Assembly (NCBI GenBank): GCA_963514005.1
Contig: OY740805.1
Span: forward strand, 36,146,001-36,210,000
Direction: 5' to 3'
Source of the DNA: Raja brachyura
Taxonomy: Eukaryota
DNA length: 64,000 nt
Part shown: piece by piece, positions 2,697-54,196 of the stretch
Position numbering within the stretch: the stretch's first letter is position 1
Layout of the letters: each line of letters opens with the position of its first letter
Notes under the pieces: model-generated
What the model was told of the DNA's origin: nothing
Databases searched by the model: none
Seen by the model: only the letters and a program-made list of their open reading frames with translations
Made by a program: the position numbers and the translations under genes

Positions 2697-2801
2697 GTTT
2701 ACCTGGACAGGGCTGCGGAAAATGACGCCCACGCCACCAAGATTCGCTGCACGGCTCACCTGGAGGGCTGTGACTGGGTCGGATCCCTGCGGAACTTCCT
2801 G
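2697..2801 (+). CDS. TRAF-like exon (RING-ZF1 linker and start of ZF1): [35 protein letters not shown]
   Basis: tcgcag acceptor at 2691-2696, gtgagt donor at 2802. 105 bp, resembling the TRAF3 VFKDNCCKREILALQIYC.. and TRAF2 FPDNAARREVESLPAVC..GCTWKG segments. Confidence 0.85.
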
Positions 2802-5800
2802 GTGAGTGATCGGGAAACGGGACGGGGGGGGGGGGGGGGGTGGTGGTTAGAGTTCCCCTTACTTTGTGATACATTGTGTGTGTCTCTCCACACTCGTATT
2901 TATATAGCTTGTGTAGACGCACAGTGTCTCTTGCCCAGAGTAGGGGAATCGAGGACCAGAGGACATAGGTTCAGGGTGAAGGGGAAAAGAATCCGAGGGA
3001 TGACTTTTTCCACACAGAGGGTGGTGGGTGTAGAGAAAAAGCTGCCAGAAGAGGTAGTTGAGGCTGGGACTGTCCCATAGTTCAAGAAAAGTTGGACAGG
3101 TACATGGATAGGACAGGTTTGGAAGGTATGGACCAAACGCAGGCAAGAGGGACTAGCGTAGCGGGGACATTGTTGGCCGGTCTGGGCAAGTTGGGCCGAA
3201 GGGCCTGGTTCCATGTCATTTCCGGTCACGGTGGCGCAGCGGTAGAGTTGCTGCCTTGCAGTGAACGCAGCACCAGAGACCAGGGTTCGATCCCGACTAC
3301 GGGTGCTGTCTGTACGGAGTTTGCACGTTCTCCCCGTGACCTGCGTGGGTTTTCTTCGGTTTCCTTCCACACTCCAAAGACGTACAGGTTTTGTAGGTTA
3401 ATTGGCTTCGGTAAATGTAAAAATTGTCCCTAGTGTGTGTAGGATAGTGTTAATGTGCGAGGATTGCTGGTCGGCACGGACCCGGAGGGCCGAAGGGCCT
3501 GTTTCCATGCTGTATCTCTAAACTAAACTAAATCTGGTGTGTTTGGATAGCTTAATTTGTTTGTCTGGAGGTACAGCATGGAAACAGGCCCTTCGGCCCA
3601 CCCAGCCATCCCCTTACACTAGCACTATCCTACACGCACTAGGCACAATTTACAATTTTACCAAAGACATAGAAAATAGGTGCAGGTGTAGGCCATTCGG
3701 CCCTTCGAGCCAGCACCGCCATTCAATATGATCATGGCTGATCATCCAACTCGGTATCCCTTACCTGCCTTCTCTCCATACCCCCTGATCCCTTTAGCCA
3801 CAAGGGCCACATCTAACTCCCTCTTAAATATAGCCAATGAACTGGCCTCAACTACCCTCTGTGGTCTTCTGAGCAAGGCCACCCACCATCAACCTGCAAA
3901 CCTATCTTTGGGAGGAAATCCATGCTGGTCACAGGAAGAATGTGCAGACAGCACCTAATTTGAGGAAGGACATTCTTGCTATTGAGGGACTGCAGCGTAG
4001 GTTGACGAGGTTAATTCCCGGGATGGCTGGACTGTCATATGCTGAGAGAATGGAGCAGCTGGGCTTGTATACTCTGGAGTTCAGAAGGATGAGAGGGGAT
4101 CTCATTGAAACATATAAGGTTGTTACGGTTTTGGACATGCTAGAGGCAGGAAACATGTTCCCGATGTCGGGGGAGTCCAGAACCAGGGGCCACACGGTTT
4201 TAAGAATAAGGAGTAAGCCATTTAGAACGGAGACGAGGAAACACTTTTTCCTCACAGAGTTGTGAGTGTGGAATTCTCTGCCTCGGAGGGCGGTGGAAGC
4301 CGGTTCTCTGGATAATTTCAAGAGAGAGTTAGATAGGGCTCTTAAAGATAGTGGAGTCAGGGGATAGGAGGAGAAGGCGGGAACGGGGTACTAATTGTGG
4401 ATGATCAGCCATGATCACATTGAATGGCGGTGCTGGCTCGAAGGGCCGAATGGCCTACTCCTGCACCTATTGTCTATTGTCATCTGTAGTCAGGATGGAA
4501 CTCGGGCCCCTGCGCTGTGAGGCAGCAACTCTACTGCTGTGGCGTTGGACTTTTATATTATAGCAGCTCATATTTAGGTGAACTAAACTATTCTCGGCAG
4601 GCCAGATGACCCAGTTTTGGGTCAGGACCCTTTTTCCGACTGCTTTGTGATGTGGGAAGAGAATACCTCCAGAGGTCCAACAGTTGGAGGTCACGTTGCA
4701 GTTGTCTAAGACGTTGGTGAGACCGCATTTAGAATATTGTGTTCAGTTCTGGGCACCTTGTTGGAGGAAAGATATTGTCAAACTTGATGGGGTTCGGTAA
4801 AGATTTACGAGGATCTACTGGCGCTGTGAGCCGCTGCAAGGCAGCAACGTTAAGAGGGAGTTAGATGTGTAAGACAGCAATATTTAAGAGGGAGTTAGAT
4901 GTGGTTAAATGGATCAGGGGGGTATGGAGAGAATGCAGGTACAGGATACTGAGTTGGATGATCAGCCATGATCATATTGAATACTCCTGCTCCTATTTTC
5001 GATGTTACTAATTCTACCGCTGCGCCACCGGGTCCTGTGGCGGGCGGAGCAAAGCTTTTCGCTGTACCTCAAGTGCCTGTGACAGTGTTGAACTAAGTTC
5101 TCGATTCGTCCCACAGCGCACGCACCGCGCCAAGTGCGATTTCCACGTGGTCCCGTGCGCCAATGTGGCCTTTGGCTGCCAGGTCTTCGGCCCCAGGAGG
5201 GAGATGGAGCTTCACGAGAGCCGCGAGTGTAGATGGCGGATGGAACGCTGCCCCCATTGCGAGACCTTCTGCGCCCACAACCTGCTGGAGGTGAGTGTAC
5301 GGCTCAGCCAACTCTGGCCCGTAACGTCATGTTGGGTTGCCAACCTTCTCACTCCCAGATAAGGGATAAACATGGCCAAATAATGGACACAAGATGGCCA
5401 ACTAAGGGACACAAGTGTGTCATCCTGTCCCGTCGCGCGCACGCTCTGTCTGCCGCCACTGATGCGCCGGTGTTTGTGTCTTGCAGGACCACGTGGCGAC
5501 CTGTGGGAAACAGGAGAGCTGCCCTCACTGTGGACAGTCCGACTTAACAAAGACAGAGGTGAGAGCCCTGGACACAGAGAGAGAGATCACTCTGCAATTT
5601 TGCATGTTCCACGTGACCACAGAATTCCTTCAGGATGCTCCGATTTCCACTCGCGTCCCAAAGAGGCACCGGTTACTGGGTTAATTGGCTTCCATAGTGA
5701 GTGAGAGAGTGAGAGAGTGAGAGAGTGAGAGAGTGAGAGAGTGAGAGAGTGAGAGAGTGAGAGAGTGAGAGAGTGAGAGAGTGAGAGAGTGAGAGAGTGA

Positions 5801-6197
5801 GAGAGTGAGAGAGTGAGAGAGTGAGAGAGTGAGAGAGTGAGAGAGTGAGAGAGTGAGAGAGTGAGAGAGTGAGAGTGTGTGTGTGAGAGTGAGTGAGTGT
5901 GTGTGTGAGAGTGAGTGAGTGTGTGTGTGAGAGTGCGTGAGTGAGTGAGAGTGCGTGAGTGAGTGAGAGTGCGTGAGTGAGTGAGAGTGCGTGCGCGAGA
6001 CTGTGTGAATGTGAGACTATGAATGAGCGTGCGTGAGAGTGTGCGTATCAAGGGCAGCACAATGGCGCAGCAGTAGAGTTGCCGCCTCACAGTTCCACAG
6101 ACTCGGGTTCGAACCCGACTCCGGGTGCTGTCTGCACGTAGAATGCACGTTCTCCCCGTGACCTGTGTGGGTTTTCTCCGGGATCTCCGGTTTCCTC

Positions 6198-6233
<36 letters not shown>

Positions 6234-9200
6234 ATACACCACTGTGGACACGGGGTCTGCGCTGACCAGCGATCACCCCGTACACTAGCACTATTCTACA
6301 CAACGAAGGACAATTTATAATTTTCCGAAGCCATTTAACTGACAAACCTGCACAACTTTGGGGTGTGGGAGGAAACCGAAGCACCAGGAGAAAACCCACG
6401 CGGGTCACGGGGAGAACATGCAAACTCCATGCAGACAGCACCCGTGGTCAGGATTGAACCCGGGTCTCCAGCGCTGTGAGGCAGTAACTCTACCGCTGCG
6501 ACAGTTGTTCACACCAGTTCTATGTCATCCCATTTCGTACAAATTCGGGATAATTTACAGGGGGCCAATTAAGCTACAATCCTGCACATCTTTGGGAAGT
6601 GGGATGACACACGCACACGCACACCCCCGAGTCGCTGTTGCAGTGTGCTCCACCACTGTGCCACCCACAGCGCGAGTCGATAACAAGCTCAGCAATTGAC
6701 CTCATGTTTTCCTCCTGCAGTTGGAACAACATTGTGACCCTGTCCTTGGCGTCTGTCCCAAGTTGAAGGTGGCCTGTCCCTTTAAGGAGGTCGGCTGTTC
6801 AGTCCAGGTTAGTACCCTCGCACCTACTCAAACTAGTGAGCTCTCCCAGCTCCGTGTTGAAGCCACGTATGATTGTGCAGGACTTCGGTTGTTCTGCATT
6901 CGGAGTACGGTCATAGTGATACAGCGTGGAAACAGGCCCTTCGGCCCGACTTCGGTTGCCTGCACCGGCCAACACGTCCCAGCTACACAAGTCCCACCCA
7001 CCTGCCTTTGGCCCATATCCCTCTAAACCCTCTATCACAGTCATGAGTGATACAGTGTGAAAACAGGCCCTTCGGCCCAACTTGCCCACACTGGCCAACA
7101 TGTCCCAGCTACACAAGTCCAACCCACCTGCATTTGGCCCATATCCCTTCTGGATAACTAAACTGCAGTAGTTGAGGTACAGTGAAAATATTTTGTTGCG
7201 TGCTATCCAGTCAGCGGAAAGATTATAAATGATTGCCATCAAGCCACCCACACTGTACAGATGCAGGATATAAGGGAATAACGTTTAGTGCAAGACAAAG
7301 TCCGATTAAAGATGGTCTGAGGGTCTCCAATGAGGTAGATGGGAGGTCAGGACTGCTCTGTAGTTGGTGAGAGGATGGTTCTGTCGGGCCATTATGGACT
7401 ACACTCTTCCTGAGACCATCTCCTGACGGCTCTGTTTTGATATAGACTTCCCTATCGTTCATTTTCACAAGTGATGGGAGTAGATTCGGTCATTCGGCCC
7501 ATCAAGTCTACTCCACCATTCAATGGTGGATGATCTATTTTTCCCCTCCTAACCCCATTCTCCGGCCTGGGATGCTGCCTGACCCGCTGAGTTTCTCCAG
7601 CACTCTGTGCCTGCTGCAGAGGTATTCGGAAATAACATGGCTGGTAATGTGACAGAGGGAGACGCGATTCCCGGGATGGTGGGACTGTCATATGCTGCGG
7701 GAATGGAGTGGCTGGGCTTGTACACTCTGGAATTTAGAACGGATGAAAGGGAATCTCATTGAAACATAAAAGATTATTAAGGGATTGGACACGCAAGAGG
7801 CAGGAAACATGTTCCTGATGTAGGGGGCGTGCAGAACCAGGGGCCACACAGTTTAAGAATAAGGGGTAAGCCATTTAGAACGGAGGCGAGGAAACACTTT
7901 TTCTCACACAGAGTGGTGAATCTGTGGAATTCTCTGCCTCAGAGGGCGGTGGAGGCCGGTTCTCTGGATACTTTCAAGAGAGCTAGATAGTGGATAGTGG
8001 AGTCGGGGGGATATGGGGAGAAGGCAGGAACTGGGTACTGATTGGGGATGATCAGCCATGATCACATTGAATGGTGGTGCTGGCTGGAAGGGCCGAATGG
8101 CCTACTCCTGCACCTGTTGTCTATTGGAGTCGGAGTGCAGATGTGACTCGCTTGAGACTTGGGGGAACCAACCTATTTTTAACATGTTTCCTGCCAATAG
8201 CATGTCCAATCAATAATATTTTATTATTAATGTTTAATGTTTTATGTGTCATTCCTAACTGCCACTGTGTGCCGTGTTGTTACTTGCGGGTGGAGCACCA
8301 AGGCAAATTCCTTGTATGTGAATACTTGGCCAATAAACTTCATTCATTCGTCGGATGTCCAACACTTTTCCTCTCTGATCCGCAGCTCCCACAACATGAA
8401 ATGTCCGCCCATCTCCGATCATCCCAGGAGAGTCACCTCCTGCTCCTCCTCTCCCTGGCCACCAGTCTCCGCCCCACATCACCAGGTGAGGGAGGATCGA
8501 CGCCTCAGGATTCCGCCCGGACACCGGCCGGAGAACGTCCGAGGAGCCCGGAGGGTGAGGCGGTGGCTGGAGCGGGGACCGGCCTGCAGTCGTTGGCCGG
8601 CCGGGCGGACAACCTGGAGCGGTGGGTGTGCGGGCTGAACAAGGACCTGGACCGCTACGCCCAGGTGATCGAGGTCCTCCAGCAGAAGTGCCTCCAATAC
8701 GAGCAGGTCATCCAGGGCCTGCAGACGGCGGGCGGGCGCGCCGAGGGTCTGGGGGGCCCGGGGCCCGTCAGCACCGATGGGGTCCTGGTGTGGAAGATCA
8801 AGAACTTCTCTGCCCACCTCTCGGCGGCCAAGGCCGGCCAGCGGCCGTCGTTCTACTCGCCGCACTTCGCCACCCACCCGTTCGGCTACCGGATGTGCTG
8901 CCGGATCTATCCCAATGGCGACGGGGCGGGCAAGGGGAGCCACGTCTCGCTCTTCCTGGCGCTGGTGAGGGGGGAATACGACGAGGTTCTCCCCTGGCCC
9001 TTCAGGCAGAAGGTGACCTTCATGCTCCTGGACCAGGCCGGGCAGAAGCACCTGAAGGAGTCCTTCTCCCCCGACTCCCTGAGCGGCTCCTTCCAGAAGC
9101 CCCGCAGCCACATGAACGTGGCCAGCGGTTGCCCAACCTTTGCCCAACATGCCCTGCTGCACAAGGGACCTGGCCAGTATCTCCGGAACGACACCATCTT

Positions 9201-9240
9201 CATCAAGGTGCTGGTGGACCCCATCGCAGTGCAGATGTGA
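2697..9240 (+). CDS. TNF receptor-associated factor (TRAF2/3/5-like), 3' part: join(2697..2801,5117..5290,5487..5558,6721..6807,8386..9240); 5 TRAF zinc fingers + coiled coil + MATH/TRAF-C domain; RING exon(s) probably upstream of window
   Basis: Five exons each flanked by (Y)nCAG and GT, all phase 0, spliced into an open 430-aa frame ending in TGA at 9238-9240. C-x2-6-C...H-x3-7-C/H zinc fingers, and MATH signature motifs [56 protein letters not shown]. Confidence 0.93.
3226..3530 (+). mobile_element. tRNA-derived V-SINE (HE1-like)
   Basis: Same structure, with a (taaac)n tail. Confidence 0.85.
5117..5290 (+). CDS. TRAF-like zinc-finger exon: [21 protein letters not shown]...[14 protein letters not shown]
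   Basis: ccacag acceptor, gtgagt donor at 5291, 174 bp phase 0-0, Cys/His spacing of TRAF zinc fingers. Confidence 0.9.
5487..5558 (+). CDS. TRAF-like zinc-finger exon: [24 protein letters not shown]
   Basis: ttgcag acceptor, gtgaga donor at 5559, 72 bp phase 0-0. Confidence 0.88.
5697..6000. repeat. (GAGAGAGT)n microsatellite grading into GT/GA repeats
   Basis: Direct inspection. Confidence 0.95.
6721..6807 (+). CDS. TRAF-like zinc-finger exon: [29 protein letters not shown]
   Basis: cctcctgcag acceptor, gttagt donor at 6808, 87 bp. CPFKEVGC matches the last TRAF zinc finger (C-x-F-x-x-x-G-C). Confidence 0.9.
7665..8125 (+). mobile_element. CR1 LINE 3' fragment in TRAF intron
   Basis: Same CR1 3' end as the other copies, ending gcacctgttgtctatt. 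Confidence 0.8.
8386..9240 (+). CDS. TRAF-like terminal coding exon: end of ZF5, linker, coiled coil and complete MATH domain
   Basis: Acceptor ttttcctctctgatccgcag ending 8385. In frame with ORF 8071..9240, whose first ~105 codons are intronic repeat sequence. GC-rich codon usage. Confidence 0.95.
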   Translation, partial: LPQHEMSAHLRSSQESHLLLLLSLATSLRPTSPGEGGSTPQDSARTPAGERPRSPEGEAVAGAGTGLQSLAGRADNLERWVCGLNKDLDRYAQVIEVLQQKCLQYEQVIQGLQTAGGRAEGLGGPGPVSTDGVLVWKIKNFSAHLSAAKAGQRPSFYSPHFATHPFGYRMCCRIYPNGDGAGKGSHVSLFLALVRGEYDEVLPWPFRQKVTFMLLDQAGQKHLKESFSPDSLSGSFQKPRSHMNVASGCPTFAQHALLHKGPGQYLRNDTIFIKVLVDPIAVQM

Positions 9241-9457
9241 CTCGCTCGAGACTTGGGGGGAACCAACCCCCGCCGTCACTTCCGGAGGGCGTTTGGTGGG
9301 TCGGTGTGGGGGGCACCTCGAACTGGACCTTCCGCCACTTCTCCAGACTGGAGTCGACTAGATGGCATTCCGTGCCATCCCTGCTCTAGAGAATTGTAAT
9401 GAGGCAGTGGCTATGGGCCTTCTCTCTGAGTGTTTGTGTGTGTGTGTACAACAGATG

Positions 9458-13110: not shown

Positions 13111-13124
13111 CTCTGATCTTTAAC

Positions 13125-15680
13125 CATATAACAATTACAGCACGGAAACAGGCCCTCTCGGCCCTTCCAGTCCGTGCAGACCATTTATTTTTCCCCTAGT
13201 CCCATCTACCTGCACTCAGACCATACCCCTCCATTCCCTTCCCGTCCATATACCTATCCACTTTACTTTTAAATGTTACAATCGATCCTGCCTCCACCAC
13301 TTCTGCTGGAAGATCATTCCATACAGCCACCACTCTCTGAGTAAAGAAGTTCCCCCTCATGTTACCCCTAAACTTCTGTCCCTTAATTCTCATGTCATGC
13401 CTGCTTGTTTGAATCTTCCCTACCCTCAATGGGAAAAGCTTATCCACGTCAACTCTGTCTATCCCTTTCATAATTTTAAAGACCTCAATCAAGTCCCCCC
13501 TTAACCTTCTGCGCTCCAAAGAATAAAGACCCAACTTGTTCAACCTTTCTCTGTAACTTAGTTGCTGGAACCCAGGCAACATTCTAGTAAATCTCCTCTG
13601 TACTCTATTTTGTTGACATCCTTCCTATAATTAGGCGACCAAAATTGTACACCATACTCCAGAATTGGTCTCACCAATGCCTTGTACAATTTTAACATTA
13701 CTTCCCTACTCCTATATTCAATGCTCTGATTTATAAAGGCCAGCACACCAAAAGCTTTCTTTACCACCCTATCTACATGCGATTCCACCTTCAGGGAACT
13801 ATGCACAGTTATTCCTAGATCCCTCTGTTCCACAGCATTCCTCAATTCCCTACCATTTACCATGTACGTCCTATTTTGATTTGTCCTGCAAAGATGTAGC
13901 ACCTCACACTTATCAGCATTAAACTCCATCTGCCATCTTTCAGCCCACTCTTCCAAATGTCCCAAATCTCTCTGTAGACTTTGAAAATCTACCTAATTTT
14001 CCACAGCACCACCCATCTTAGTATCATCTGCATACTTACTTATCCAATTTTCCACCCCATCATCTAGATCATTGATGTACATGACAAACAACAGTGGACC
14101 CAACACAGATCCCTGAGGCACCCCACTGGTCACCGGCTTCCAACCTGACAAACAGCCATCCACCATTACTCTCTGGCATCTCCCATTCAGCCACTGTTGA
14201 ATCCATCTTGCTACTCCGCCATTAACACCCAAAGATTGAACCTTCATAACCAACCTTCCATGGGGAACCTTGTCAAAGGCCTTACTGAAATCCATATAGA
14301 CAACATCCACTGCTTTACCCTCATCAATTTCCCTAGTAACCTCTTCAAAAAATTCAAGAAGGTTTGTCAAACATGACCTTCCAGGCACAAATTCATGTTG
14401 ACTGTTCTTGATCAGACCCTGTTTATCCAAATGCTTATATATATTATCTCTAAGTATCCTTTCCATTAATTTGCAAACCACTGACGTCAAACTAACAGGT
14501 CTATAATTGCTAGGTTTATTCTTTGAACCGGTTTTAAACAATGGAACAACATGTGCAGTACGCCAATCCTCCGGCACTATTCCCGTTTCTAATGACATTT
14601 GAAATATTTCTGTCATAGCCCCTGCTATTTCTACACTAACTTCCCTCACTGTCCTAGGAAATATCCTGTCAGGACCTGGAGACTTATCCACTTTTATATT
14701 TTTCAAAAGTGTCAGTACTTCCTCCTCTTTGAATCTCATAGTTTCCATTGCTACTCTACTTTTTCCCTTACCTCACATAATTCAATATTCTTCTCCTTGG
14801 TGAATACCGAAGAAAAGAAATTGTTCAATATCTCCCCCATCTCTTTTGGCTCTGCAGATAGCTGTCGATTCTGGCTCTCTAATTGTCCAATTTTATCCCT
14901 CGTTATCCTTTTGCTATTAATATAGCTGTAGAAACCCTTTGGATTTACTTTCACCTTTCTTGCCAAAGCAACCTCATATCTTCTTTTAGCTTTTCTTATT
15001 TCTTTCTTAAGATTCTTTTTACATTCTTTATACTCATCTAGCGCCTCATTTACTCCATGCCTCCTATAATATTGTAGATATCTCTCTTTTTTCGAACAAA
15101 GTGTCCAATTTCCCTTGAAAACCATGGCTCTTTCCGATTTTTACTATTTCCTTTCAACCGAACAGGGACATAAAGATTCTGTACTCTTACAATTTCCCCT
15201 TTAAATGTCCTCCATTTCTCTTCTACATCCTTCCCATAAAACAAAATGTCCCAATTCACTCCTTTTAAATCATTACACATTCCCTCAAAGTTAACTTTTC
15301 TCCAATCAAAAATCTCAACCCTAGGTCCAGTTCTGACTCTCTCCATAATTATATTGAAACTATTGGTATTGTGATCACTGGTCCCGAAGTGCTCACCAAC
15401 GCATACCTCCATCACCTGACCTGCCTCATTTCCTAACAGGAGGTCCAGCACTGCCCCTTCTCTGGTCCTCTATATGTTGCTGCAAAAAACTATCCTGCAC
15501 ACATTTAACAAACTCCAAACCATCCAGCCCATTTACAGAATGTGTTTCCCAGTCTATTTTTGGAAAATTGAAATCTCCCACAATCACTACCTTGTGCTTA
15601 CTACTAATATCTGCTATCTCCTTACATATTAGCTCTTCCAATTCTCGCTCCCCATTTGGCGGTCTATAATACACCCCTAA
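13125..15680 (-). mobile_element. CR1 LINE, 5'-truncated, ORF2 (endonuclease C-part + RT) with frameshifts
   Basis: Contiguous ORFs 15426..15716, 15050..15451, 14751..15125, 13993..14748, 13558..13965 and 13196..13582 give VYYRPPN, GDFNFP, KSPGPD, NYRPVSLTS, DFSKAFDKVPH, GVPQGSVLGP and YADD, plus a CR1 C-terminus. Confidence 0.95.
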
Positions 15681-16069
15681 ATAACCCTTTAATAACCCAT
15701 TATCTGTTATTTGCACTATCAGTTTATTTATTCATGTGTGTATGTATTTATATAATGGTATATGGACGCACTAATCTGTTTTGTATTCATGCCTACTATG
15801 TTCTGTTGTGCTGAAGCAAAGCAAGAATTTCATTGTCCTATCAAGGACACATGGCAATAAACTCACTTGAACTTGGACTTGAACTTAGACCTACCAAAGT
15901 ACAATAGGGGAATCTTGAACCAGCGGGCATAGGTTAAAGCTGAGCTGGGACAGGTAACTGGAGGGGCAACTTTTTCACATCATGGGTGGTGGGTATATGG
16001 AATGAGCTGCCAGAGGAAGTGGTTCTATTAGCAGATGGAATACAGCATTGCAACGTTGGTGTGCGGTCA

Positions 16070-28200: not shown

Positions 28201-31200
28201 GTTGGGGTCACTCACCAACACGGCACACCTACGGACCATTGCCTTGGCTCTGTCCTGAAGGGCGGTGGCTCAAATGGCTCACACTCACTCGCCCCCGGCC
28301 TACAGACAACGCAGATCCCCGACAGTGAAGCCCAGACACAGAAGGTGCGCGGGCGGCCGTGCCGGCGGCTTTGCGCAGGATGCGGTACAGTCGGCACTGG
28401 GCGCCACTCGGCTGCTCCGCCATTGCGACCACCAGCACAGGCCTCCTTGCAACACCGCGCCTCGGGCCCGGGAGGTACCGGAGGTGCGGAAGTCTGTGGG
28501 ACGGGTAATTACGGGGAACAAGATCCGCCTGCGGGCCGGGTAATACCGGTTTACGGGCCGCATTCGGCCCGGGGGCCGTAGGAAAGTAGGCTATTATCTG
28601 AATGGCGGATGATTAGGAAAAGGGGAGATGCAACGAGACCTGGGTGTCATGGTACACCAGTCATTGAAAGTAGGCATGCAGGTGCAGCAGGCAGTGAAGA
28701 AAGCAAATGGTATGTTAGCATTCATAGCAAAAGGATTTGAGTATAGGAGCAGGGAGGTTCTACTGCAGTTGTACAGGGCCTTGGTGAGACCACACCTGGA
28801 GTATGGCGTACAGTTTTGGTCTCCTAATCTGAGGAAAGAGATTCTTGCCATAGAGGGAGTACAGAGAAGGTTCACCAGACTGATTCCTGGGATGGCAGGA
28901 CTTTCATATGGAAAAAGACTCGATAGACTTGGCTTGTACTTGCTAGAATTTAGAAGATTGAGGGGGGATCTTATAGAAACTTACAAAATTCTTAAGGGGT
29001 TGGACAGGCTAGATTCATGAAGATTGTTCCCGATGTTGGGGAAGTCCAGAACAGTTTAAGGGGGAAGTCTTTTAGGACCGAGATGAGAATTTTATTTTTT
29101 CACACAAAGAGTGGTGAATCTGTGGAATTCTTTGCCACAGAAGGTAGTTGAGGCCAGTTCATTGGCTATATTTAAGAGGGAGTTAGATGTGGCCCTTGTG
29201 GCTAAAGGGATCAGGGGGTATGGAGAGAAGGCAGGTATGGGATACTGAGTTGGATGATCAGCCATGATCACATTGAATGGCGGTGCAGGCTCGAAGGGCC
29301 GAATGGCCTACTCCTGCACCAATGTTCGATGTTTTTATGTTTCTATGACCCCTGATTTAGAGGTTTATGGGCCAAGCATGGGCAGGTGGGATGTGTAGGT
29401 TGGTCATCGTGGGTCAGCATGGGCAAGCTGAGCACAAGGGCCTATTTCTGTGCAGCAAGTCTCCTTGACTCCAGACACTAAAAACATAAGATAAATAAAC
29501 AACTCACTCCATCTCATCATCCCCCACCGATGCGTTGGGAGGTTGGTCCGTGGACGGTTTTTGAACGATAATCGCGTATTGTATCCCCTCGTCCGTGGAC
29601 GTCTGTTGGAGCAGAAGGATTAGATTCAGAGGCGATGGACGACAAAAGCGTAGAAGAAAAATTCAGTTCAGTCCATTGCCACGTGTACCGAGGTACAGTG
29701 AAAAGCTTTTGTTGCGTGCTATCCAGTCAGTGGAAAGACAATAGACAATAGACAACAGGTGCAGGAGGAGGCCATTCGGCCCTTCGAGCCAGCACCGCCA
29801 TTCAATGTGATCACGGCTGATCATCCCCAATCAGTACCCCGTTCCTGCCTTCTCCCCATATCCCCTTACTCCGCTATCTTTAAGAGCCCTATCTAGCTCT
29901 CTCTTGAAAGCATCCAGAGAACCGGCCTCCACCGCCCTCTGAGGCAGAGAATTCCACAGACTCACAACTCTCTGTGAGAAAAAGTGTTTCCTCGTCTCTG
30001 TTCTAAATGGCTTACCGCTTATTCTTAAACCTCGGGTGCTGTCTGTACGGAGTTTGCACGCTCTCCCCGTGACCGCGTGGGGTTTTCTCCAGGTGCTTTG
30101 GTTTTCTTCCACAAAGTGTTTCCTCGTCTCCGTTCTGAATGGCCTACCCCTTATTCTTAAACTGTGTGGCCCCTTGTTCTGGACTCCCCCAAATCTAACT
30201 CTCTCTTGAAAACATCCAGTGAATTGGCCTCCACTGCCTTCTGCAGTAGAGAATTCCACTAATTCACAACTCTCTGGGTGAAAAAGTGTTTCCTATCTCC
30301 GTTCTAAATTGGCTACATCTTATTCTTAAAGTGTGTGGCCCCTGGTTTTGGACTCCCCCAACATCGGGAACATGTTTCCTGCCTCTAGTGTGTCCAAACC
30401 ATTAATAATCTTAAGAAGGAACTGCAGATGCAGTTGTGAAGAAGTGTCCCGACCCAAAATGTTGCCTATTTCCTTCGCTTCGTAGATGCTCAGCTCCTAA
30501 CAGCATGGTGTGCTGACAATAACCTGGCCCTCAACTCCAAGAAGACCAAGGAGCTCATTGTGGACTTCAGGAGATTGAGAGGCTGCACGCACACCCCCAT
30601 CCATATTAACAGGACAGAGGTGGAACGTGTCTCCAGCTTCGGGTTCCTGGGGTTCAACATCTCCGATGACCTCTCCTGGACCCACAACACATCCTCGCTG
30701 ATCAAGAAGGCTCGCTCAAGAAGGCTCACCAGCGTCTCTTCTTCCTGAGGAGACTTAAGAAGGTCCACCTGTCTCCCTAGAGTCTGGTGAACTTCTACCG
30801 CTGCACCATCGAGAGCATCCTTACCAACTGCAGCACAGTATGGTGTGGCAACTGCTCTGTCGCCGACCGGAAAGCTCTGCAGAGGGTGGTGAAGATTGCC
30901 CAACGCATCACAGGCTCCTCACTCCCCTCCATTGAGTCTGTCCATAGTAAACGATGCCTGCACAGGGCGCACAGCATCGCCAGGGACAGCTCACACCCCA
31001 ACCATAGACTGTTTACCCTCCTCCCATCCGGGAGACGCTACAGGTCCCTCCGCTGCCGGACCAGCAGGCTCAAGAACAGCTTCTTCCCTGCGGCTGTCGC
31101 ACATCTCAACGCTGCGCCTCAATGACTGCCTGTCTCCACCCCTCCCCCCGGACACTGTATATGTATAGATGTATATACTCATACTACTGCGCAATTACTT

Positions 31201-37200: not shown

Positions 37201-40200
37201 CCTGGCCACAAACTCTTTGAATCACTTCCCTCTGGAAGGCGACTCCGGACTGTCAAAGCTGCCACAGCCAGACATAAAAACAGCTTTTTTCCACGAGTGG
37301 TAGTTCTACTCAAAAACCAAAAATCTGTAGCCTCCTTTTGTTCTGGTATTTTATTTAGTTCACATGTTTAATCGATAATGTTTCATTATTAATGTTTAAT
37401 GTTTTATGTGTCATTCCTAACTATCACTGTATGTCATGTTGTCACTTGCGGGCGGAGCACCAAGGCAAATTCCTTGTATGTGAATACTTGGCCAATAAAC
37501 GTATTCAAACATTCATTCATTCATTCTCCGCATAAACCTTGACACCTGTACTCCAGCACTTTTGTGTGTATCTTCAGTTTAAACCAGCATCTACACTTGA
37601 CGTTTTACCTCCCCCCTTGACTCCATCCAAGGACCCAAGCAGTTTTTCCAGGTGAGGCAGAGGTTCACCTGCACCTCCTCCAACTTCATTCATTGCATCC
37701 GCTCCTCTATATGTCAGCTGATCTACATCGGTGAGACCAAGCGTAGGCTTGGCGATCGCTTCGCCTAATACCACCGCTCGGTTCGCAATAACCAACCTGA
37801 TCTCCCGGTGGCTCAGCACTTCAACTCCCCCTCCCATTCCGAATCCGACCTTTCTGTCCTGGGCCTCCATGGCCAGAGTGAGGACCACTGCAAATTGTAG
37901 GAGTAGCGCCTCATATTTTTTGCTTGGGCAGTTTGCACCCCAGCGGTATGAATATTGACCTCCAATTTCAGGTAGTCCCTTCTTTCTCCTCCCCTTCTCA
38001 GTTCTCCCTCAGCCCACTGCCTCCACCTCTTCCTATCTTTTTCCCACACCCATCCACACTCACATCAGTCTGAAGAAGGGTTTTGCTCCGTAGATGCTGC
38101 CTCACCCGCTGAGTTTCATCAGATTTTTGTCCACCTTCGTTTGTACAGCATCTGCAGTTCCTTCTTAAACATCTGCAGTTCCTTCCTCCACATCCTACTA
38201 TTTCCCCCACTTTCCTCCCCATCAATGTTGCAGATCCATTTCCCACCCCAGTTCTGTTGCAAAGTCAACAGATTTAACTCTGCCGTTCCCCCCCGGCCTT
38301 TCCGCAATTTATCTTGGATCCTCCGTCGGCTGCGGGTCCGTTCCAATTGGACTCACCAGTTCCGGCTCGTCATCCGTAAGAGGTGAAGTCGGATCAGCTG
38401 CAAAATTAATTATGTACATATTAATGTAGGCAAATTAGCAAGCCCCGCCCACTTACTTAGCATAGAAACCACACCCCCATTCCCTGTTCACCCCCCAGCC
38501 CCTCCAATTCTTTTCCCGTGCAAACACAGAGTTGCAAACATAAGGGCCGAATGGCCTACTCCTGCACCTATATCCTATTTTCTATTGAATGGCGGTGCTG
38601 GCTCGAAGGGCTGAATGGCCTACTCCTGCCCCTATTGTCTTTTGTCCATTGAATGGCGGTGTTGGTTCGAAGGGCCGAATGGCCTACTCCTGCACCTATT
38701 GCCTATTGACCAGTGCGGCCACAGTGGCGCAGCGGTAGAGTTGCTGCCTCACAGCGCCAGAGACCCGGGTTCGATCTCGATTACAGGTGCTGTCCGCTAT
38801 CTTTAAGAGCCCTATCTAGCTCTCCCTTGAAAGTAACCAGAGAACCGGCCTCCACCACCCTCTGAGGCAATTAAGGGATTGGAAACGCTAGAGGCAGGAA
38901 ACAGGTTCCCGATGTTGGGGGAGTCCAGAACCAGGGGCCACACAGTTTAAGAATAAGGGGTAGGCCATTTAGAACGGAGATGAGGAAAGACTTTTTCACC
39001 CAGAGAGTGGTGAGTCTGTGGAATTCTCTGCCTCAGAGGGCGGTGGAGGCCGGTTCTCTGGATACTTTCAAGAGAGAGCTAGATGGAGGTCTTAAAAATA
39101 GCGGAGTCAGGGGATATGGGGAGAAGGCAGGAATGGGGGTACTGATTGGGGATGATCAGCCATGATCACATTGAATGGCGGTGCTGGCTCGAAGGGCCGA
39201 ATGGCCTACTCCTGCACCTGTTGTCTATTGTCCATCCAACGTCTCCCTGTGGCTGGAAGTCTCTAATCCAGGCACCATTCTGGTACGGGGCTTTAAAACC
39301 ACAGGCTCAGCTCTGGATAAAACGCTGAGTTTACTTACCGTCTGTCACCATTGGAGTCAAAGGGAATGCCTCTAAACTGTGGAGCAAGGAAGAAAGAACA
39401 GTTAGTGTTGGAAGGAACTGCAGGTGCCACTTTACACCGAAAATAGGCACTAAATGCTGGAGTAACTCAGCGGGCCAGCCAGCATCTTTGGAGAAAAAGA
39501 ATAGGTGACATTTCAGGTCAAAGATGGAACGCAACCCGCAATGACATCGACTCACAGAGTGATACAGTGTGGAAACAGGCCCTTCGGCCCAACTCGCCCA
39601 CACCGGCCGACATGTCCCAGCTACACTAGGCCCACTTGCCTGCGCTTGGTCCATATCCTTCCAAACCTGTCCTATCCATGTACCTGTCCAACTGGTTTCT
39701 TAAACGATGGGATAGCTCCAGCTTCAGCTACCTCCCCTGGCAGCTTGTTCCATACTCCCACCACCCTCTGTGTGAAAAAGTTACCCCTCGCATTCCTAAT
39801 AAATCTTTTCCCCTTCATCTTGAACCTATGTCCTCTGGTCCTCGATTCCCCTACTCTGGGCAAGAGACTCTGTGCATCTACCCGATCTATTCCTCTCATG
39901 ATTTTGTACACCTCTGTAAGATCTCCCCTCATCCTCCTGCGCTCCATGGAATAGAGCCCCAGCCTACTCAACCTCTCCCTATAGCTCACACCCTCTAGTC
40001 CTGGCAACATCCTAGTAAATCTTCTCTGAACCCTTTCAAGCTTGACAACATCTTTCCTATAACATGGTGCCCAGAACTGAACACAATATTCTAAATGCGG
40101 CCTCACCTATTCCTTTCCTTTCCTCCAGAGATGCTACCTGACCCACTGAGTTACTCAAGCAGCTAGTGTCAAAGATTGAACAATTAAGTGACCTTTACAC

Positions 40201-43200: not shown

Positions 43201-46200
43201 TACACTAGTCTCACCTGCCTGCGCTTGGTCCATATCCCTCCAAACCTGTCCTGTCATGTACTTGTCCAACTGTTTCTTAAACGTTGGGATAGTCCCAGCC
43301 TCAACTACCTCCTCTGGCAGCTTGTTCCATACACCCACTAAAAAGCCACCCCTCAGATTACTATTAAATCTTTTCCCCTTCACCTTGAACCTATGTCCTC
43401 TGGTCCTCGTTTCCCCTACTCTGGGCAAGAGGCACTGCCTACCCTGAATAAAATTATAACATAGTAATAACTAAATATAAATAGTAAAGGCATGGGAGAA
43501 TTATGCCTATGTAAGAGATCGATCTCTTAGGTAGGCATAATTCTCCGTGCCTTTCATCCGCAGCGCTTGTAACACGGGAAGCTCTGTGCAGCCCACGTGC
43601 CGTCAAGCGCTGCCTGAAGCCGTCAGTTTCAAGCGGGGCTGAAGGCAGCAGAAATTCTGCCTTTGCGGGGTTTTCAAATATGGGTTTCAGTTTCTTGGCA
43701 GGGTTTTCAAATATGGATTGTCAATATTTTAAGTGTATGTTAGGTAACAAAGAGAGAAGAATGGAGTTTGTGTGCCAATAATGTGGTAAGTACATTTTGT
43801 GTTTATATTTTTAAATATTGTATTTCCCGGGGTGTGGGGGTGGGGTGGAGAGCTCCTTTCCAAGCATTTGGCGAGTCTGGCCCGGGGTTAAGTTGCGGGG
43901 AGGGCACGAATGTTATGAATGAGGGGATTGGGATAATGCCACTTGCAACACTCCTTGCACAGAGGTGTGCAATGCCACCGCATTGAGGCAGATGGGGGGG
44001 GGGGGAGAGAGAGAAGTAGCTCGGGTGGCTGAGCGGCCGCTGGGCCGGACAGCGGAACCAGCCGCCACCGTAGCTCCTTCTGCCGGTCCCCGCTCACCTC
44101 TGGCAGCTCTCCGTCTAAAAACCTCTCTCCTGCCGCTCGCTGGCCTCACTCATGTCCTTAAATTCCGACAGCGCGATTGAGGTTACTCGGCTGTGGGAAT
44201 TTAAGGATTTTCAGGAAGCCGCTGACATGAGCGAAATCGGCGAACGGCAGGTGACAGGTGTTCCGACGGAGAGCACTGACAAAGGTGAGCGGGCCGGCAG
44301 AAGGTGCTGAAGTGGCGGCTAGTTCTGCTGTCGGGTCCCGTTGGCCGCTCCCCGAGCTACTTCTATCCCCAGCTACAGTGCGTGGCTTCACGCCCGGAGA
44401 GCTGCGCTAGTTGTGAGTGAGTGAGTTACTGGCAGTATCCCTGACACCCTCCTTCTCAACACTCGTGCCCTCCCCACAACTTTACCCCTGACTCTCCACA
44501 TGCTGTGAAAGGAACTGTTCCCCCAATTGGTCTAGGAAGCCTAGGAAGGGCAAATTGAAATGTCACTGCTTTTAATTAATTTATTTATTTAACGGAGAGA
44601 ACCATCTGCGCATGCGCGGTTTAATTCTTTTAAGCGGACTGAGTGCCTACCCTGAGTAATTACTCACGGCACGTGCCTGCTGTGTGTCTACCCGATCTAT
44701 TCCTCTCATGATTTTATACACATCTATAAGATCACCCCTCATCCTCCTGCGCTCCAAGGAATAGAGTCCCAGCCTGCTCAACCTCTCCTTGCAGTTCACA
44801 CCCTCTAGTTACTGAAACCATAATGTGTGACACACTGTCCCATCCAGTCCCAGAGGGGGAATGGATAGTGTGTTACAATAGACAATAGGTGCAGGAGTAG
44901 GACATTAGGCCCTTCGAGCCAGCACCGCCATTCCCAGTGATCATGGCTGATCATCCACAATCAGTACCCCGTTCCTGCCTTCTCCCCATATCCCCTGACT
45001 CCGCTATCTTTAAGAGCCCTATCTAGCTCTCTCTTAAAAGTATCCAGAGAACCGGCCTCCACCGCCCTCTGAGGCAGAGAATTCCACAGACTCACAACTC
45101 TCTGTGAGAAAAAGTGTTTCCTCGTCTCTGTTCTAAATGCCTTATTCCTTATTCGTAATCTGTGTGGCCCCTGGTTCTGGACTCCGCCAACATCGGGAAC
45201 ATGTTTCCTGTCTCTAGCGTATCCAAACCCTTAATAATCTTATATGTTTCAATAAGATCCCCTCTCATCCTTCTAAACTCCAGAGCATACAATACAATAT
45301 ACAATACAATACAATATTTTATTCCATGTCATTTAAACCTCAGTGAGGCTCAAACCAAACTCCGTTTCCACAGCCATACAAACAAAGACAATTCCTACAA
45401 ATACAAACAATTCACTTTACACAAACATCCATCACAGTGAATCTCCTCCTCACTGTGATGGAAGACAAAGTCTTTTCTATACAAGCCCAGCCGCTCCATT
45501 CTCTCAGCATATGACAATCCCGCCATCCCGGGAATTAACCTTGTAAACCTACGCTGCACTCCCTCAATAGCAAGAATGTCCTTCCTCAAATTAGGGGACC
45601 ATATCGGCACACAATATTCCAGGTGTGGTCTCACCAGGGCCCTGTACAACTGCAGAAGGACCTCTTTGCTCCTATACTCAACTCCTCTCGTCATGAAGGC
45701 CAATAGCCCATTCACTTTCTTCACTGCCTGCTGCACCTGGGTGACACACTGACCCACCCAGTTTGACTGGTCAGAGAGTTAAATAGTTCAACGTCCTTAC
45801 GTTTGGCTCTGCGGGTTTGCCTGCAGAGGTGGATGGAGACGAAGAGGATGCAGCCTTCCAACACGACCGAGAATGCCAGGATCAACAGGAGAATGGTGGC
45901 ACGTTTTATCTTCCCTGTGGAGAAGACAACAGCTCAGAACCTGCAAACAGCAACAGGCCATTCGGCCCCTCAAGGTCAGTCCAGCACACAGCTACATGCG
46001 GGCAGATCTGAACAGTTTATCATTGTATCAGCGAAGGTGACGTTTCTGGTCGAGACCCTTCTTCAGATTTAGTTTAGTTTAGTTTAGCTTTGTTTAGTTT
46101 AGTTGAGTGTAGTTTAGTTTAGAGGTACAACACAAAGACAGGCCCTTCGGCCCATCAAGTCCGCGCTGACCAGCGATCCCCGCACACCAACACTATCCTA

Positions 46201-52439: not shown

Positions 52440-54080
52440 CTAGGGTTATGCTGCACCATATGATACTTGTAACAAATCAATAAAAGGTGACCATACTCTT
52501 AAGAATCGTTCTTGTTTTCCTACTAGAACGAGTCTCATTTCCTCGAGATGTAATATTTCCGACATATTTGTGATCCACATTTTAAACGTTGGGATAGGAG
52601 CGTTTTTCCAGAATTTAAGCATATGATTTTTGTGCCGTTATTAAACCATAGTTTAGGAAACATCTTTGAAATATGGTTAGTTCAGAACAGGTTTCCCTTG
52701 CTCCGAAGATAATTAATTCTGTGTTTGGGTCCAGTCTTAATTTAAATATTTTTGAAAAGCTTTCAAAAATGTCCTTCCAAAAATTCTGAGGTTTTGCACA
52801 GGAAACAAATGAGTGTGCTATTGTTGCCTCGTTAGTTAGGCACTTATCACAGAAGGGAGAGACGTTTGGAAAGATTTTATTTAGTTTTGTTTTTGAGTAA
52901 TATAATCTGTGTACAATTTTAAATTGGATCAGTGTATTTCTAACGTTAATCGAACATTTATGTACATATGACATATAATCTTCCCGTCTGTCCTTGGGAA
53001 TTTCTATAGCCAATTCTTGTTACCATTCTTTTCTTATACCTTCTGTCAAAGGAAAATCTATCTTTAGAATAGTATGATAAAAATATGATGTTAAATGATC
53101 CAAATTCTACCTTATTCATGCCTTGCTCTTGAAGGTCCAACTTCTAATTTTGATCATCTTGCGACTGTTTCTGCCACATAATCTCGGGTTTGTAAGTATC
53201 TAAAATATTGATTGTTTTCCAAATTGTATTTAAGCTGTAAGTCTTGGAATTGTAAACATTTTCCCTCTTCATACAAATCTTCCCAAGTCTTAATCCCCAA
53301 TCGTTCCCAGAGCGTAAACGTTTTGTCAATAGTCGATGGCTTAAACGCCGGGTTGTTAGCTATCGTTGAGAGAAGCGAAAGATTTCTTAATTTAAGGGAG
53401 GATTTGATTTGTCTCCAAATTCGTATTGTGCTGCGAATCATCAGGTTTCTCTTATATATTGTGTTCTTCAATGTTATTGGGCAGAAAAGGATCGCTCCTA
53501 TGTTAAAATGAGTGCAATCCTCCTTCTCCATTATTGTCCATTCTGCTGTTGTGATGCACGATCCAACCAGTACATTATATTTCCAATGTTCACTGCCCAA
53601 TAGTAGTAGGTAAATTTGGCAAGTGTGAGTCCACCATATTCTTTAGGCTTACATAAATGTATTCAATGGGATTTATAGTCCCATATGAAATTTGTACTGT
53701 ATGAGTCAATTTTTTAAAGACGTTTTTAAGGTATATATGTAGGTATTGATTGGAATAAATACAGTATTTGTGGAAGAAAAATCATTTTAATGGCATTTAT
53801 TCTGCCTATTAAGGTCATCGGTAGTGTTTTCCAAAATTGGATCGACGTTTGTAATTTAGTAAGTAAGGGCAGATAATTTGTGTTAAATAGAGATTTCTAT
53901 TTTCTGGTAATTTGAATACCCAAGTATTTAAATCTTTCTGTGGTAATTCTAAAAGGGTATTTTAAAATATGTGTTTTATCGTCATTATTTCACTTTTATT
54001 CCAATTTATTCTATATCCTGAAAAGGAACCAAATTCTTCTATTAAGTTTAATAGATGTGGTATGCTAATTTGTGATTTTG
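52440..54080 (-). mobile_element. L1-clade LINE ORF2 C-terminal fragment
   Basis: LIQFKIVHRLYYSKTKLNKIFPNVSPFCDKC..HSFVSC (CCHC zinc knuckle) and WERLGIKT..FQDLQLKYNL..FRYLQ. AT-rich, with a poly(T) tract on + near 52050. Confidence 0.8.
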
Positions 54081-54109
54081 TCATATATAATAATACATCT
54101 GCATATAAT

Positions 54110-54110
54110 C

Positions 54111-54195
<85 letters not shown>
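54110..54195. repeat. (TA)n(CA)n(TA)n microsatellite
   Basis: Direct inspection. Confidence 0.95.

Positions 54196-54196
<1 letters not shown>

What the first reader, a model, noticed from the sequence alone, without database searches (positions are those of the whole stretch)
2697..9240. Mosaic TRAF that fits no single TRAF1-6 orthologue: candidate additional TRAF paralogue
Seen: five zinc fingers with a TRAF2/3/5-like exon layout (105/174/72/87 bp, all phase 0). The coiled coil [13 protein letters not shown] resembles the TRAF1/2 cIAP-interaction segment FENIV(C/A)VLN(R/K)EVE. The MATH domain has TRAF3/5-like [23 protein letters not shown] and DTIFIKV. Coiled coil plus MATH lie in one 855-bp exon, whereas mammalian TRAF2/3/5 split this region over several exons. 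The coiled coil is short (~50 aa). Inference: a divergent TRAF lineage retained in cartilaginous fish and possibly lost in mammals.
Basis: partly seen in the sequence, partly recalled or inferred. Interest (0 to 1): 0.7.

Follow-up and report, generated by a model that had tools for sequence, protein, structure and literature searches.

The report
Extra MHC-linked TRAF lost in mammals
This skate gene belongs to a separate, ancient branch of the TRAF immune-signalling adaptors, also found in sharks, early-branching bony fish, amphibians and reptiles; it likely sits in the MHC region, was likely lost in mammals, and is predicted to form a trimer that likely binds TNF-receptor tails.

Summary
The five exons are real (phase 0, AG/GT, 430 aa, no stop). 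The protein is 92% identical to a little-skate 'TRAF2-like'; the RING lies upstream of the window. It belongs to one fully supported clade with named members in 46 species: sharks, rays, bichir, sturgeon, paddlefish, gar, coelacanth, caecilians, salamanders, turtles, squamates. None was found in teleosts, frogs, crocodilians, birds or mammals. Full-length AU tests reject sisterhood to TRAF3 or TRAF5, and sawfish has a separate true TRAF2. Best reading: an extra TRAF1/2-type gene in MHC class III, possibly the missing chromosome-6 paralogon copy (tree unresolved). The receptor groove is conserved, a homotrimer is predicted, the cIAP-binding segment is eroded, and the coil next to the MATH domain is replaced by a linker. 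I found no paper describing it.

The parts
2697..2801 (+). Coding exon, 105 bp, phase 0: end of RING region and first half of zinc finger 1 (first exon inside the window; the RING exon or exons lie upstream)
   Evidence: AG/GT, open frame; matches P0123 aa 69-103
5117..5290 (+). Coding exon, 174 bp, phase 0: zinc fingers 1-3; skipped in shark isoforms, and its equivalent is missing from reptile members
   Evidence: (zf-TRAF E 0.004)
5487..5558 (+). Coding exon, 72 bp, phase 0: zinc fingers 3-4
6721..6807 (+). Coding exon, 87 bp, phase 0: zinc fingers 4-5, with a 4-residue insertion shared with amphioxus and hemichordate TRAF2-like proteins
   Evidence: (zf-TRAF E 5e-4)
8386..9240 (+). Terminal coding exon, 855 bp: end of zinc finger 5, low-complexity spacer, coiled coil, linker, MATH domain, stop codon
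8584..8727 (+). Coiled coil of about 48 aa (TRAF-N)
   Evidence: sequence; helix 282-339 in the model of the sawfish orthologue; heptad contacts 281-337 in the predicted trimer
8617..8649 (+). Eroded homologue of the TRAF1/2 cIAP-binding segment (5 of 11 residues as in TRAF2)
   Evidence: the shark B copy P0122 hits PF16673 at E 3e-5, below cut-off, and TRAF2 chain 3m0a_A at E 0.0023
8728..8769 (+). Gly/Pro-rich linker that replaces the conserved coil next to the MATH domain
   Evidence: alignment; spacing 46-62 aa in 45 of 46 clade proteins against 69 in all 9 TRAF1/2-type references; pLDDT under 50 at 335-352 of the orthologue model
8770..9222 (+). MATH (TRAF-C) domain with a TRAF1/2/3/5-type receptor groove; the middle serine of the serine triad is glycine
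   Evidence: residue roles from PMC6125299

Best explanation
This is the 3' part of a skate gene from a separate, gnathostome-wide TRAF subfamily, likely of the TRAF1/2 branch, that likely lies in MHC class III and is predicted to form a homotrimer that would bind PxQ/E-type motifs in TNF-receptor tails and would signal mainly through its own RING rather than through recruited cIAPs. Shown: intact exons, separate clade, conserved groove residues, eroded cIAP segment, lost coil next to MATH, intact RING ligands in orthologues. Predicted: the trimer. Inferred: receptor binding (about 0.8), MHC location of the skate copy (about 0.85), weak or no cIAP binding by this copy (about 0.55), origin as the chromosome-6 paralogon counterpart of TRAF1/TRAF2 (about 0.55), and repeated loss in teleosts, frogs, archosaurs and mammals (about 0.75). 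It would act as a competitor or modulator of TRAF2 on the same receptor tails.
For: Clade 100/100 with a long stem in MATH and full-length trees; 52 of 52 candidate rows on one side of a 100-supported branch. Full-length AU tests: with vertebrate TRAF3/5 p 0.0002, TRAF5 p 6e-5, TRAF3 p 3e-5, whole bilaterian TRAF3 side p 0.011 (rejected); with vertebrate TRAF1/2 p 0.33 (not rejected). Full-length trees put it on the TRAF2 side (84/89; 94). TRAF1/2-type coil homology. Groove: positions equal to TRAF2 R393, Y395, D399 and F410 are identical in 46 of 46 clade proteins; F447, S455 and F456 in 45 of 46; S453 in 44 of 46 (roles). C3HC4 RING pattern in 42 of 46. Trimer score 0.73 against best control 0.03; mark reached by 21 of 30 solved pairs and 0 of 23 single chains; contacts agree 89%, pLDDT 82. 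TRAF trimers are solved, so this pass may come from likeness. Synteny: sawfish chr34 (MHC) lists LOC127586120 'TRAF3-like' beside BAG6 and FAM102A-like, and LOC127586057 beside ABHD16A, NFKBIL1 and CSNK2B. Reedfish chr1 lists LOC114651186 between AIF1 and DDAH2, while traf2b and TRAF1-like are on chr9. Contig lengths of P0001 (19,913,265) and P0121 (115,848,844) fit the ends of the MHC chromosome lists (19,829,058 and 115,613,256). NCR3-like V exons lie downstream in the window. A green-turtle model fuses this MATH to an MHC-I-like domain.
Against: The free trees never join the clade to vertebrate TRAF1/2; they leave it outside a group of vertebrate plus most invertebrate TRAF2-like rows. The RING/zinc-finger partition marginally rejects a union with vertebrate TRAF1/2 (p 0.038), and the union without lamprey rows is borderline (p 0.0497). 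MATH alone cannot tell TRAF1/2 (p 0.29) from TRAF3/5 (p 0.23), and one quick MATH tree nested the clade beside TRAF5 (86). The best PDB score for the terminal exon is TRAF3 (178 bits; TRAF1 172, TRAF2 163, TRAF5 159). Protein-to-locus links rest on names and contig lengths, not accessions. The reedfish protein was not seen. In reedfish an NCR3-like gene is off the MHC chromosome, so NCR3 adjacency does not prove MHC location. No expression or binding data.
Confidence: 0.72

Rival explanations
1. Same separate subfamily, but it descends from a pre-vertebrate TRAF2-type duplicate (related to one amphioxus lineage) and is not a whole-genome-duplication copy of TRAF1/2.
For: The best non-clade hits to both clade profiles are amphioxus TRAF2-like proteins (449 and 399 bits). 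It shares the compact RING with amphioxus P0028 and the zinc-finger-4 insertion with amphioxus and hemichordate. The RING/zinc-finger tree joins it to P0028, weakly (76/49); AU p 0.17. A single terminal exon, as in TRAF6 (recalled), needs no intron loss.
Against: Shared features may be ancestral states. A long stem (0.95-1.28 changes per site) pulls it rootward. Its place in MHC class III beside FAM102A-like mirrors TRAF1/2 on the chromosome-9 paralogon (the human FAM102A position is recalled).
Confidence: 0.3
2. A true chimera: a TRAF1/2-type N-terminus and coil joined to a TRAF3/5-derived MATH domain at the rearranged linker.
For: The linker replaces conserved coil exactly between the two parts. 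TRAF3 is the best PDB hit for the MATH. A quick MATH tree nests it beside TRAF5. MATH-only AU does not reject TRAF3/5 (p 0.23).
Against: MATH identities are flat, 46-56% to all 38 outside rows. Both loop-length states in the shark and coelacanth MATH match TRAF1 and invertebrate TRAF2-type rows, not TRAF3 (alignment). The careful MATH trees do not nest it in TRAF3/5. Long-branch attraction to TRAF5 is the simpler cause.
Confidence: 0.1
3. It is a fast-evolving one-to-one orthologue of TRAF1, TRAF2, TRAF3 or TRAF5 that annotation mislabelled.
For: NCBI names members TRAF1-, 2-, 3- or 5-like. AU does not reject sisterhood to TRAF1 (p 0.22) or TRAF2 (p 0.11). No chondrichthyan TRAF1 protein was in my trees.
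Against: Sisterhood is not orthology. The clade spans sharks to lizards, and so does TRAF2 (Pristis, Narcine, Varanus, Talpa). TRAF1 runs from pike to birds as its own clade, and an elephant-shark traf1 is listed separately. Reedfish lists four separate genes: TRAF1-like, traf2b and TRAF2-like on chr9, and the MHC one on chr1. TRAF3 and TRAF5 are rejected by AU.
Confidence: 0.03
4. Functionally it is a TRAF2-like cIAP-recruiting adaptor, redundant with TRAF2, which would explain its repeated loss.
For: The cIAP segment is recognisable, and better kept in the shark B copy and coelacanth (6-7 of 11 residues). The receptor groove is the same type as TRAF2's.
Against: Only 1 of 12 clade proteins scanned hit PF16673, at 24 bits against a cut-off of 30.5, while 4 of 4 TRAF1/2-type references scored 71-114. 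The window copy has 5 of 11 residues; amphibian, ray-finned and reptile members have 1-5. The segment is near-invariant in true TRAF2 (11 of 11 in 4 of 4).
Confidence: 0.25

Closest known systems
TRAF2 and TRAF1 (vertebrate; on the chromosome-9 MHC paralogon)
   Same: C3HC4 RING ending CxxC, five zinc fingers (TRAF2), homologous cIAP-binding coil, MATH groove residues. Phe at the L432 position and a non-serine middle triad residue recall TRAF1.
   Different: Separate clade; about 50% MATH identity; no TRAF1/2-type insertion after the RING; eroded cIAP segment; coil next to MATH replaced by a linker; coil and MATH in one exon (TRAF1/2 split it; recalled); MHC class III instead of the chromosome-9 paralogon.
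TRAF3 and TRAF5
   Same: Compact RING region, groove residues, several MATH motifs; best PDB hit for the MATH is TRAF3.
   Different: Rejected as sister in full-length AU tests; they lack the cIAP-type segment (0-3 of 11) and have a long coil.
TRAF6 and TRAF4
   Same: TRAF6 also encodes coil plus MATH in one terminal exon after 159/72/78-bp zinc-finger exons (recalled, no call).
   Different: MATH scores only 109-118 bits (TRAF4) and 64-70 bits (TRAF6) against 159-178 for TRAF1/2/3/5; their receptor hot spots differ (PMC6125299). Neither was in my trees.
Amphioxus TRAF2-like proteins (Branchiostoma P0028, P0045)
   Same: Top non-clade profile hits; compact RING (P0028) and zinc-finger-4 insertion.
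   Different: They keep the full cIAP segment (PF16673 71 bits) and the coil next to MATH.
NCBI automatic models 'TRAF2-like / TRAF3-like' (e.g. sawfish LOC127586120, LOC127586057; reedfish LOC114651186)
   Same: Very likely the same subfamily; listed in the supplementary gene tables of PMC10751288.
   Different: Not recognised as a subfamily: the main text of that paper has 0 occurrences of 'TRAF'.

Membership tests
TRAF family (TRAF1-6 type) | C-terminal MATH/TRAF-C domain | tested here: met
   PF21355 E 1.3e-41; PDB TRAF chains E to 4e-51; fold search top hits all TRAF domains
TRAF family (TRAF1-6 type) | Coiled coil (TRAF-N) before the MATH domain | tested here: met
   Helix 282-339 in orthologue model; about 48 aa in the window; separated from MATH by a linker
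TRAF family (TRAF1-6 type) | TRAF-type zinc fingers | tested here: met
   Five ligand sets; zf-TRAF above cut-off in the 92%-identical orthologue
TRAF family (TRAF1-6 type) | N-terminal RING | tested here: inconclusive
   Outside the window; present in P0123 and in 42 of 46 clade proteins
TRAF family (TRAF1-6 type) | Trimer through the TRAF domain | tested here: inconclusive
   Predicted only, on the sawfish orthologue: 0.73 vs control 0.03; 21 of 30 and 0 of 23 in calibration; may be from likeness to solved trimers
TRAF1/2/3/5 receptor-binding type | Hot-spot residues R393, Y395, F410, F447, S453-S455, F456, C469 (TRAF2 numbering) | tested here: met
   Window has all except S454 (Gly), with Phe at L432 as in TRAF1
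TRAF2 orthologue | Nests in the gnathostome TRAF2 clade and is the only such gene per species | tested here: not met
   Separate clade; sawfish and Narcine have both
TRAF2 orthologue | cIAP-binding domain PF16673 above cut-off | tested here: not met
   0 of 12 clade proteins above cut-off, 1 weak hit; none for the window exon
TRAF1 orthologue | Nests in the TRAF1 clade; next to C5 on the chromosome-9 paralogon | tested here: not met
   Outside the TRAF1 clade; TRAF1-C5 synteny from PMC7768046; TRAF1-like genes listed on other chromosomes. Sisterhood not rejected (p 0.22)
TRAF3 orthologue | Groups with TRAF3 | tested here: not met
   AU p 3.2e-5; a separate TRAF3/5-group protein exists in little skate, P0084
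TRAF5 orthologue | Groups with TRAF5 | tested here: not met
   Full-length AU p 6.4e-5 with two mammalian TRAF5 rows only; one quick MATH tree placed it beside TRAF5 at 86
MHC-paralogon copy of TRAF1/2 | Located in the MHC proper | tested here: met
   For orthologues, by name and contig length; for the window itself only through the NCR3-like neighbour
MHC-paralogon copy of TRAF1/2 | Sister to vertebrate TRAF1/2 to the exclusion of invertebrate TRAF2-like genes | tested here: inconclusive
   Not in the free trees; AU p 0.33 full length, 0.038 RING/zinc fingers, 0.29 MATH
MHC-paralogon copy of TRAF1/2 | Shared intron positions with TRAF1/2 in the coil-MATH region | not testable with these tools
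   No vertebrate genome collection here; by recall TRAF1/2 have introns there and this gene has none

The most novel reading that the evidence does not exclude
Jawed vertebrates began with an eighth TRAF, encoded in MHC class III as the chromosome-6 paralogon partner of TRAF1/TRAF2. It has a detached short stalk, signals without cIAPs, was duplicated in sharks and rays into a cIAP-poor and a cIAP-like copy, was trimmed to RING plus one finger plus MATH in reptiles, and was lost independently in teleosts, frogs, archosaurs and mammals.
Probability: 0.4. Interest if true: 0.72.

Novelty: new variant of a known kind. Interest (0 to 1): 0.56.

Why it matters
TRAF1-7 is treated as the vertebrate set (PMC6125299). 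An extra, ancient member inside MHC class III would add an intracellular adaptor of TNF-receptor signalling to the region that carries the TNF-family ligands (white-shark chr19 list), and would fill an empty slot in the MHC paralogons. It also gives a natural experiment on how a TRAF works with an eroded cIAP site and no coil next to the MATH domain, with reptile versions as a minimal form. In practice it corrects dozens of misleading 'TRAF1/2/3/5-like' labels. The parts are all familiar, so this is an evolutionary and comparative-immunology finding, not a new kind of system.

Tried and rejected
RING exon inside the window: a splice-site scan of 1-2700 gave only repeat-derived candidates and tblastn found none. 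Pseudogene or artefact: rejected (intact frame, GC3 0.62-0.86, 92% orthologue). Other genes near the TRAF: an exon scan of non-repeat DNA (56% of the window is self-repeated) found only the NCR3-like gene; it would miss low-GC exons. Accession look-up to tie proteins to gene loci could not be made, so those links rest on names and contig lengths. Careful mixture-model trees did not finish; quick ones are cited. All AU tests used LG+G4 on 33 rows without reptile members, TRAF4 or TRAF6; the groups were named after seeing earlier trees. Literature: seven searches aimed at a prior description returned none. Passage searches for 'TRAF' gave 0 in the main texts of PMC10751288, PMC12227049, PMC12619710, PMC12863176 and PMC7674686; their supplements, except that of PMC10751288, were not read. 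Two papers most likely to bear on this (MHC paralogon gene lists; shark NCR3), asked for by DOIs that I recalled, were not held. No open paper with cIAP-contact residues was found, so those roles are recalled. cIAP binding was not modelled because no skate cIAP was available.
Full report
Observation. The last exon holds a MATH domain (Pfam E 1.3e-41) whose best solved relatives are TRAF3 (178 bits), TRAF1 (172), TRAF2 (163) and TRAF5 (159), well above TRAF4 (109-118) and TRAF6 (64-70). Five zinc-finger ligand sets are present. The spliced protein is 92% identical to residues 69-495 of a Leucoraja erinacea 'TRAF2-like' protein, so the window is from a skate and the 68 N-terminal residues with the RING are encoded upstream of it.

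A separate subfamily. Searching with the last exon gave a block of shark, ray, coelacanth, caecilian and salamander proteins at 271-411 bits, then a drop to 208 (paddlefish, also a member) and about 190 or less for ordinary TRAFs. Two profile searches added bichir, sturgeon, gar, turtles, lizards and snakes. By my count of the names the members come from 46 species: 13 elasmobranchs, 4 non-teleost ray-finned fish, coelacanth, 5 amphibians, 6 turtles and 17 squamates. All 52 candidate rows tested lie on one side of a branch with support 100, and the clade is 100/100 in careful MATH and full-length trees. No member from teleosts, frogs, crocodilians, birds, mammals, lungfish, chimaeras or lampreys appeared among the 120, 120 and 92 proteins listed. 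Those searches are word-limited (7,719-8,000 candidates), so absence is provisional. An exhaustive scan of 1.84 billion 50%-identity representatives returned only five full-length clade clusters and two partial ones, all already known; the other high scorers were tandem-MATH proteins, and the next full-length hit was amphioxus (score table only). A hidden member would have to sit inside those clusters or have diverged to background level. Sharks have two copies, A (the window's type) and B; in Heptranchias both are on a contig of the same length.

Not an orthologue of a known TRAF. In a 33-row full-length set, AU tests reject joining the clade to TRAF3 (p 3e-5), TRAF5 (p 6e-5), vertebrate TRAF3/5 (p 0.0002) or the whole bilaterian TRAF3 side (p 0.011). 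They do not reject vertebrate TRAF1/2 (p 0.33), TRAF1 (0.22), TRAF2 (0.11), lamprey TRAF2-like (0.14) or one amphioxus lineage (0.17). Sawfish and Narcine carry both this gene and a true TRAF2, and little skate carries a separate TRAF3/5-group protein. Against a neat placement: the free trees leave the clade on the TRAF2 side but outside vertebrate TRAF1/2, the RING/zinc-finger partition marginally rejects the vertebrate TRAF1/2 union (p 0.038), the MATH partition cannot choose (0.29 against 0.23), and a quick MATH tree nested it beside TRAF5. TRAF4 and TRAF6 were not in the trees, TRAF5 had two mammalian rows only, and reptile members were left out of the AU set.

'Mosaic'. The window MATH is 46-56% identical to every one of 38 outside rows, vertebrate or invertebrate, and the motifs called TRAF3/5-like recur in amphioxus, brachiopod and sea-anemone proteins. 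The coil is of TRAF1/2 type: the shark B copy hits PF16673 weakly and the TRAF2 cIAP-binding chain 3m0a_A at E 0.0023. Zinc finger 4 keeps an insertion shared with amphioxus and hemichordate TRAF2-like proteins. The simplest reading is an old TRAF2-type lineage that kept ancestral states and then evolved fast; a real chimera stays possible at about 0.1. On exon layout, I recall human TRAF2 as 99/162/75/75 followed by four exons, TRAF3 as 105/168/81/75 followed by four, and TRAF6 as 159/72/78 followed by one 813-bp exon; these come from no call. If right, the zinc-finger introns are family-wide and the single last exon is shared with TRAF6.

Location. About 19-41 kb downstream, on the minus strand, lies a gene with two V-type Ig exons and a transmembrane exon; the best solved match of one exon is NCR3 (E 6e-9) and NCR3 ranks near the top for the other. 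PMC12227049 calls NCR3 MHC-linked (passages). In the supplement of PMC10751288 (searches and parts 6, 7, 17, 19 and 24 of 98), the sawfish MHC chromosome 34 lists two TRAF-like genes in class III, each shortly after a FAM102A-like gene: one between ABHD16A and NFKBIL1, one between BAG6/FAM102A-like and a DDR-like gene, with three NCR3-like genes between them. The reedfish MHC chromosome 1 lists a 'TRAF3-like' gene between AIF1 and DDAH2, while traf2b, a TRAF1-like and a TRAF2-like gene are on chromosome 9. The sawfish member P0001 has the same name as the second gene and a contig of 19,913,265 bp, against a last listed feature at 19,829,058; the white-shark member P0121 has 115,848,844 against 115,613,256. 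These are inferences, because the accession look-up could not be made. A green-turtle gene model joins this clade's MATH to an MHC-I-like domain; its middle piece resembles NFKBIL1 by recall only. TRAF1 lies beside C5 on human chromosome 9 (PMC7768046 passages) and chromosomes 1, 6, 9 and 19 are the MHC paralogons (PMC10751288 and PMC7674686 passages). A TRAF1/2-type gene in the MHC proper fits a genome-duplication copy (about 0.55); an older duplicate is the rival (about 0.3).

How it most likely works. PMC6125299 (parts 1-2 of 4) names the groove residues by which TRAF1/2/3/5 bind Px(Q/E)E and PxQxT motifs. Mapped through mole TRAF2, R393, Y395, D399 and F410 are identical in 46 of 46 clade proteins, F447, S455 and F456 in 45, and S453 in 44; S454 varies (Gly in the window; Ala in TRAF1) and C469 is Ser in 26. 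Receptor-tail binding is thus likely but untested. The stalk differs: from the cIAP segment to the MATH domain there are 69 residues in all 9 TRAF1/2-type references but 46-62 in 45 of 46 clade proteins, because the conserved coil next to MATH is replaced by a Gly/Pro linker, which is low-confidence in the model of the sawfish orthologue. Three copies of that orthologue's coil-MATH region still score 0.73 as a trimer against a best control of 0.03 (mark reached by 21 of 30 solved pairs and 0 of 23 single chains; 89% contact agreement, pLDDT 82). TRAF trimers are solved, so this may reflect likeness. The cIAP segment matches TRAF2 at 5 of 11 positions in the window, 6-7 in shark B copies and coelacanth and 1-5 in amphibians, ray-finned fish and reptiles; by recall the changed positions include cIAP contacts. 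The RING ligands are intact in 42 of 46 and the RING lacks the TRAF1/2-type insertion that, by recall, hinders E2 binding in TRAF2. I therefore infer a receptor-proximal trimer that competes with TRAF2 for the same tails and relies on its own RING more than on cIAPs. Reptile members of about 365 aa keep RING, one finger, coil and MATH and drop the other fingers, which points to those as the core.

Novelty. The genes exist as automatic 'TRAF1/2/3/5-like' models and as unremarked rows in one supplement. Seven searches of the open library found no description of the subfamily (listings only, plus passages of PMC11401434, PMC12619710, PMC12863176, PMC11997178 and PMC11117997). Most subscription papers are not searched and two relevant ones were not held, so prior mention cannot be excluded. 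Verdict: a real, apparently undescribed variant of a known family; interest 0.56.

Noticed in passing
window 50241-50580, about 47234-47568 and 45801-45914 (minus strand): NCR3/NKp30-like receptor with two V-type Ig exons and a transmembrane exon that carries a glutamate; candidate cytoplasmic exons near 38360-38400 and 29528-29602, the latter with an ITIM-like tyrosine motif. A two-domain, possibly inhibitory NCR3 relative; the splicing of the tail is not verified.
   Followed up: partly
window 8130-8173 and 9224-9268: A 45-bp stretch spanning the TRAF stop codon is repeated at 93% identity in the intron just before the terminal exon; possibly a remnant of an old tandem duplication of that exon.
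   Followed up: partly
P0136-P0145 and P0197-P0207 (turtles, lizards, snakes): Reptile members are about 365 aa and lack zinc fingers 2-5, with the deletion starting at a phase-0 exon border seen in the window.
   Followed up: partly
P0227 (Chelonia mydas): A fused gene model: MHC-I-like domain, transmembrane segment, a piece recalled as NFKBIL1-like, and this clade's MATH; likely an annotation fusion of neighbouring genes.
   Followed up: partly
P0084 and P0086 (Leucoraja, Scyliorhinus 'TRAF3-like'): A chondrichthyan TRAF3/5-group clade that is unresolved between TRAF3 and TRAF5; it may be the shark TRAF5 or a further paralogue.
   Followed up: partly
P0175, P0160, P0219 (alligator, frog, pike TRAF1): Non-mammalian TRAF1 proteins keep an N-terminal RING, unlike the RING-less mammalian TRAF1 of the reviews.
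   Followed up: no
window 56601-57503 (minus strand): A 300-aa Tc1/mariner-type transposase reading frame without internal stops.
   Followed up: no
window 13124-15731, 52615-54894, 60823-61569: Fragments of LINE-type retroelements (reverse transcriptase, endonuclease); 56% of the window is self-repeated and there are five N gaps.
   Followed up: no
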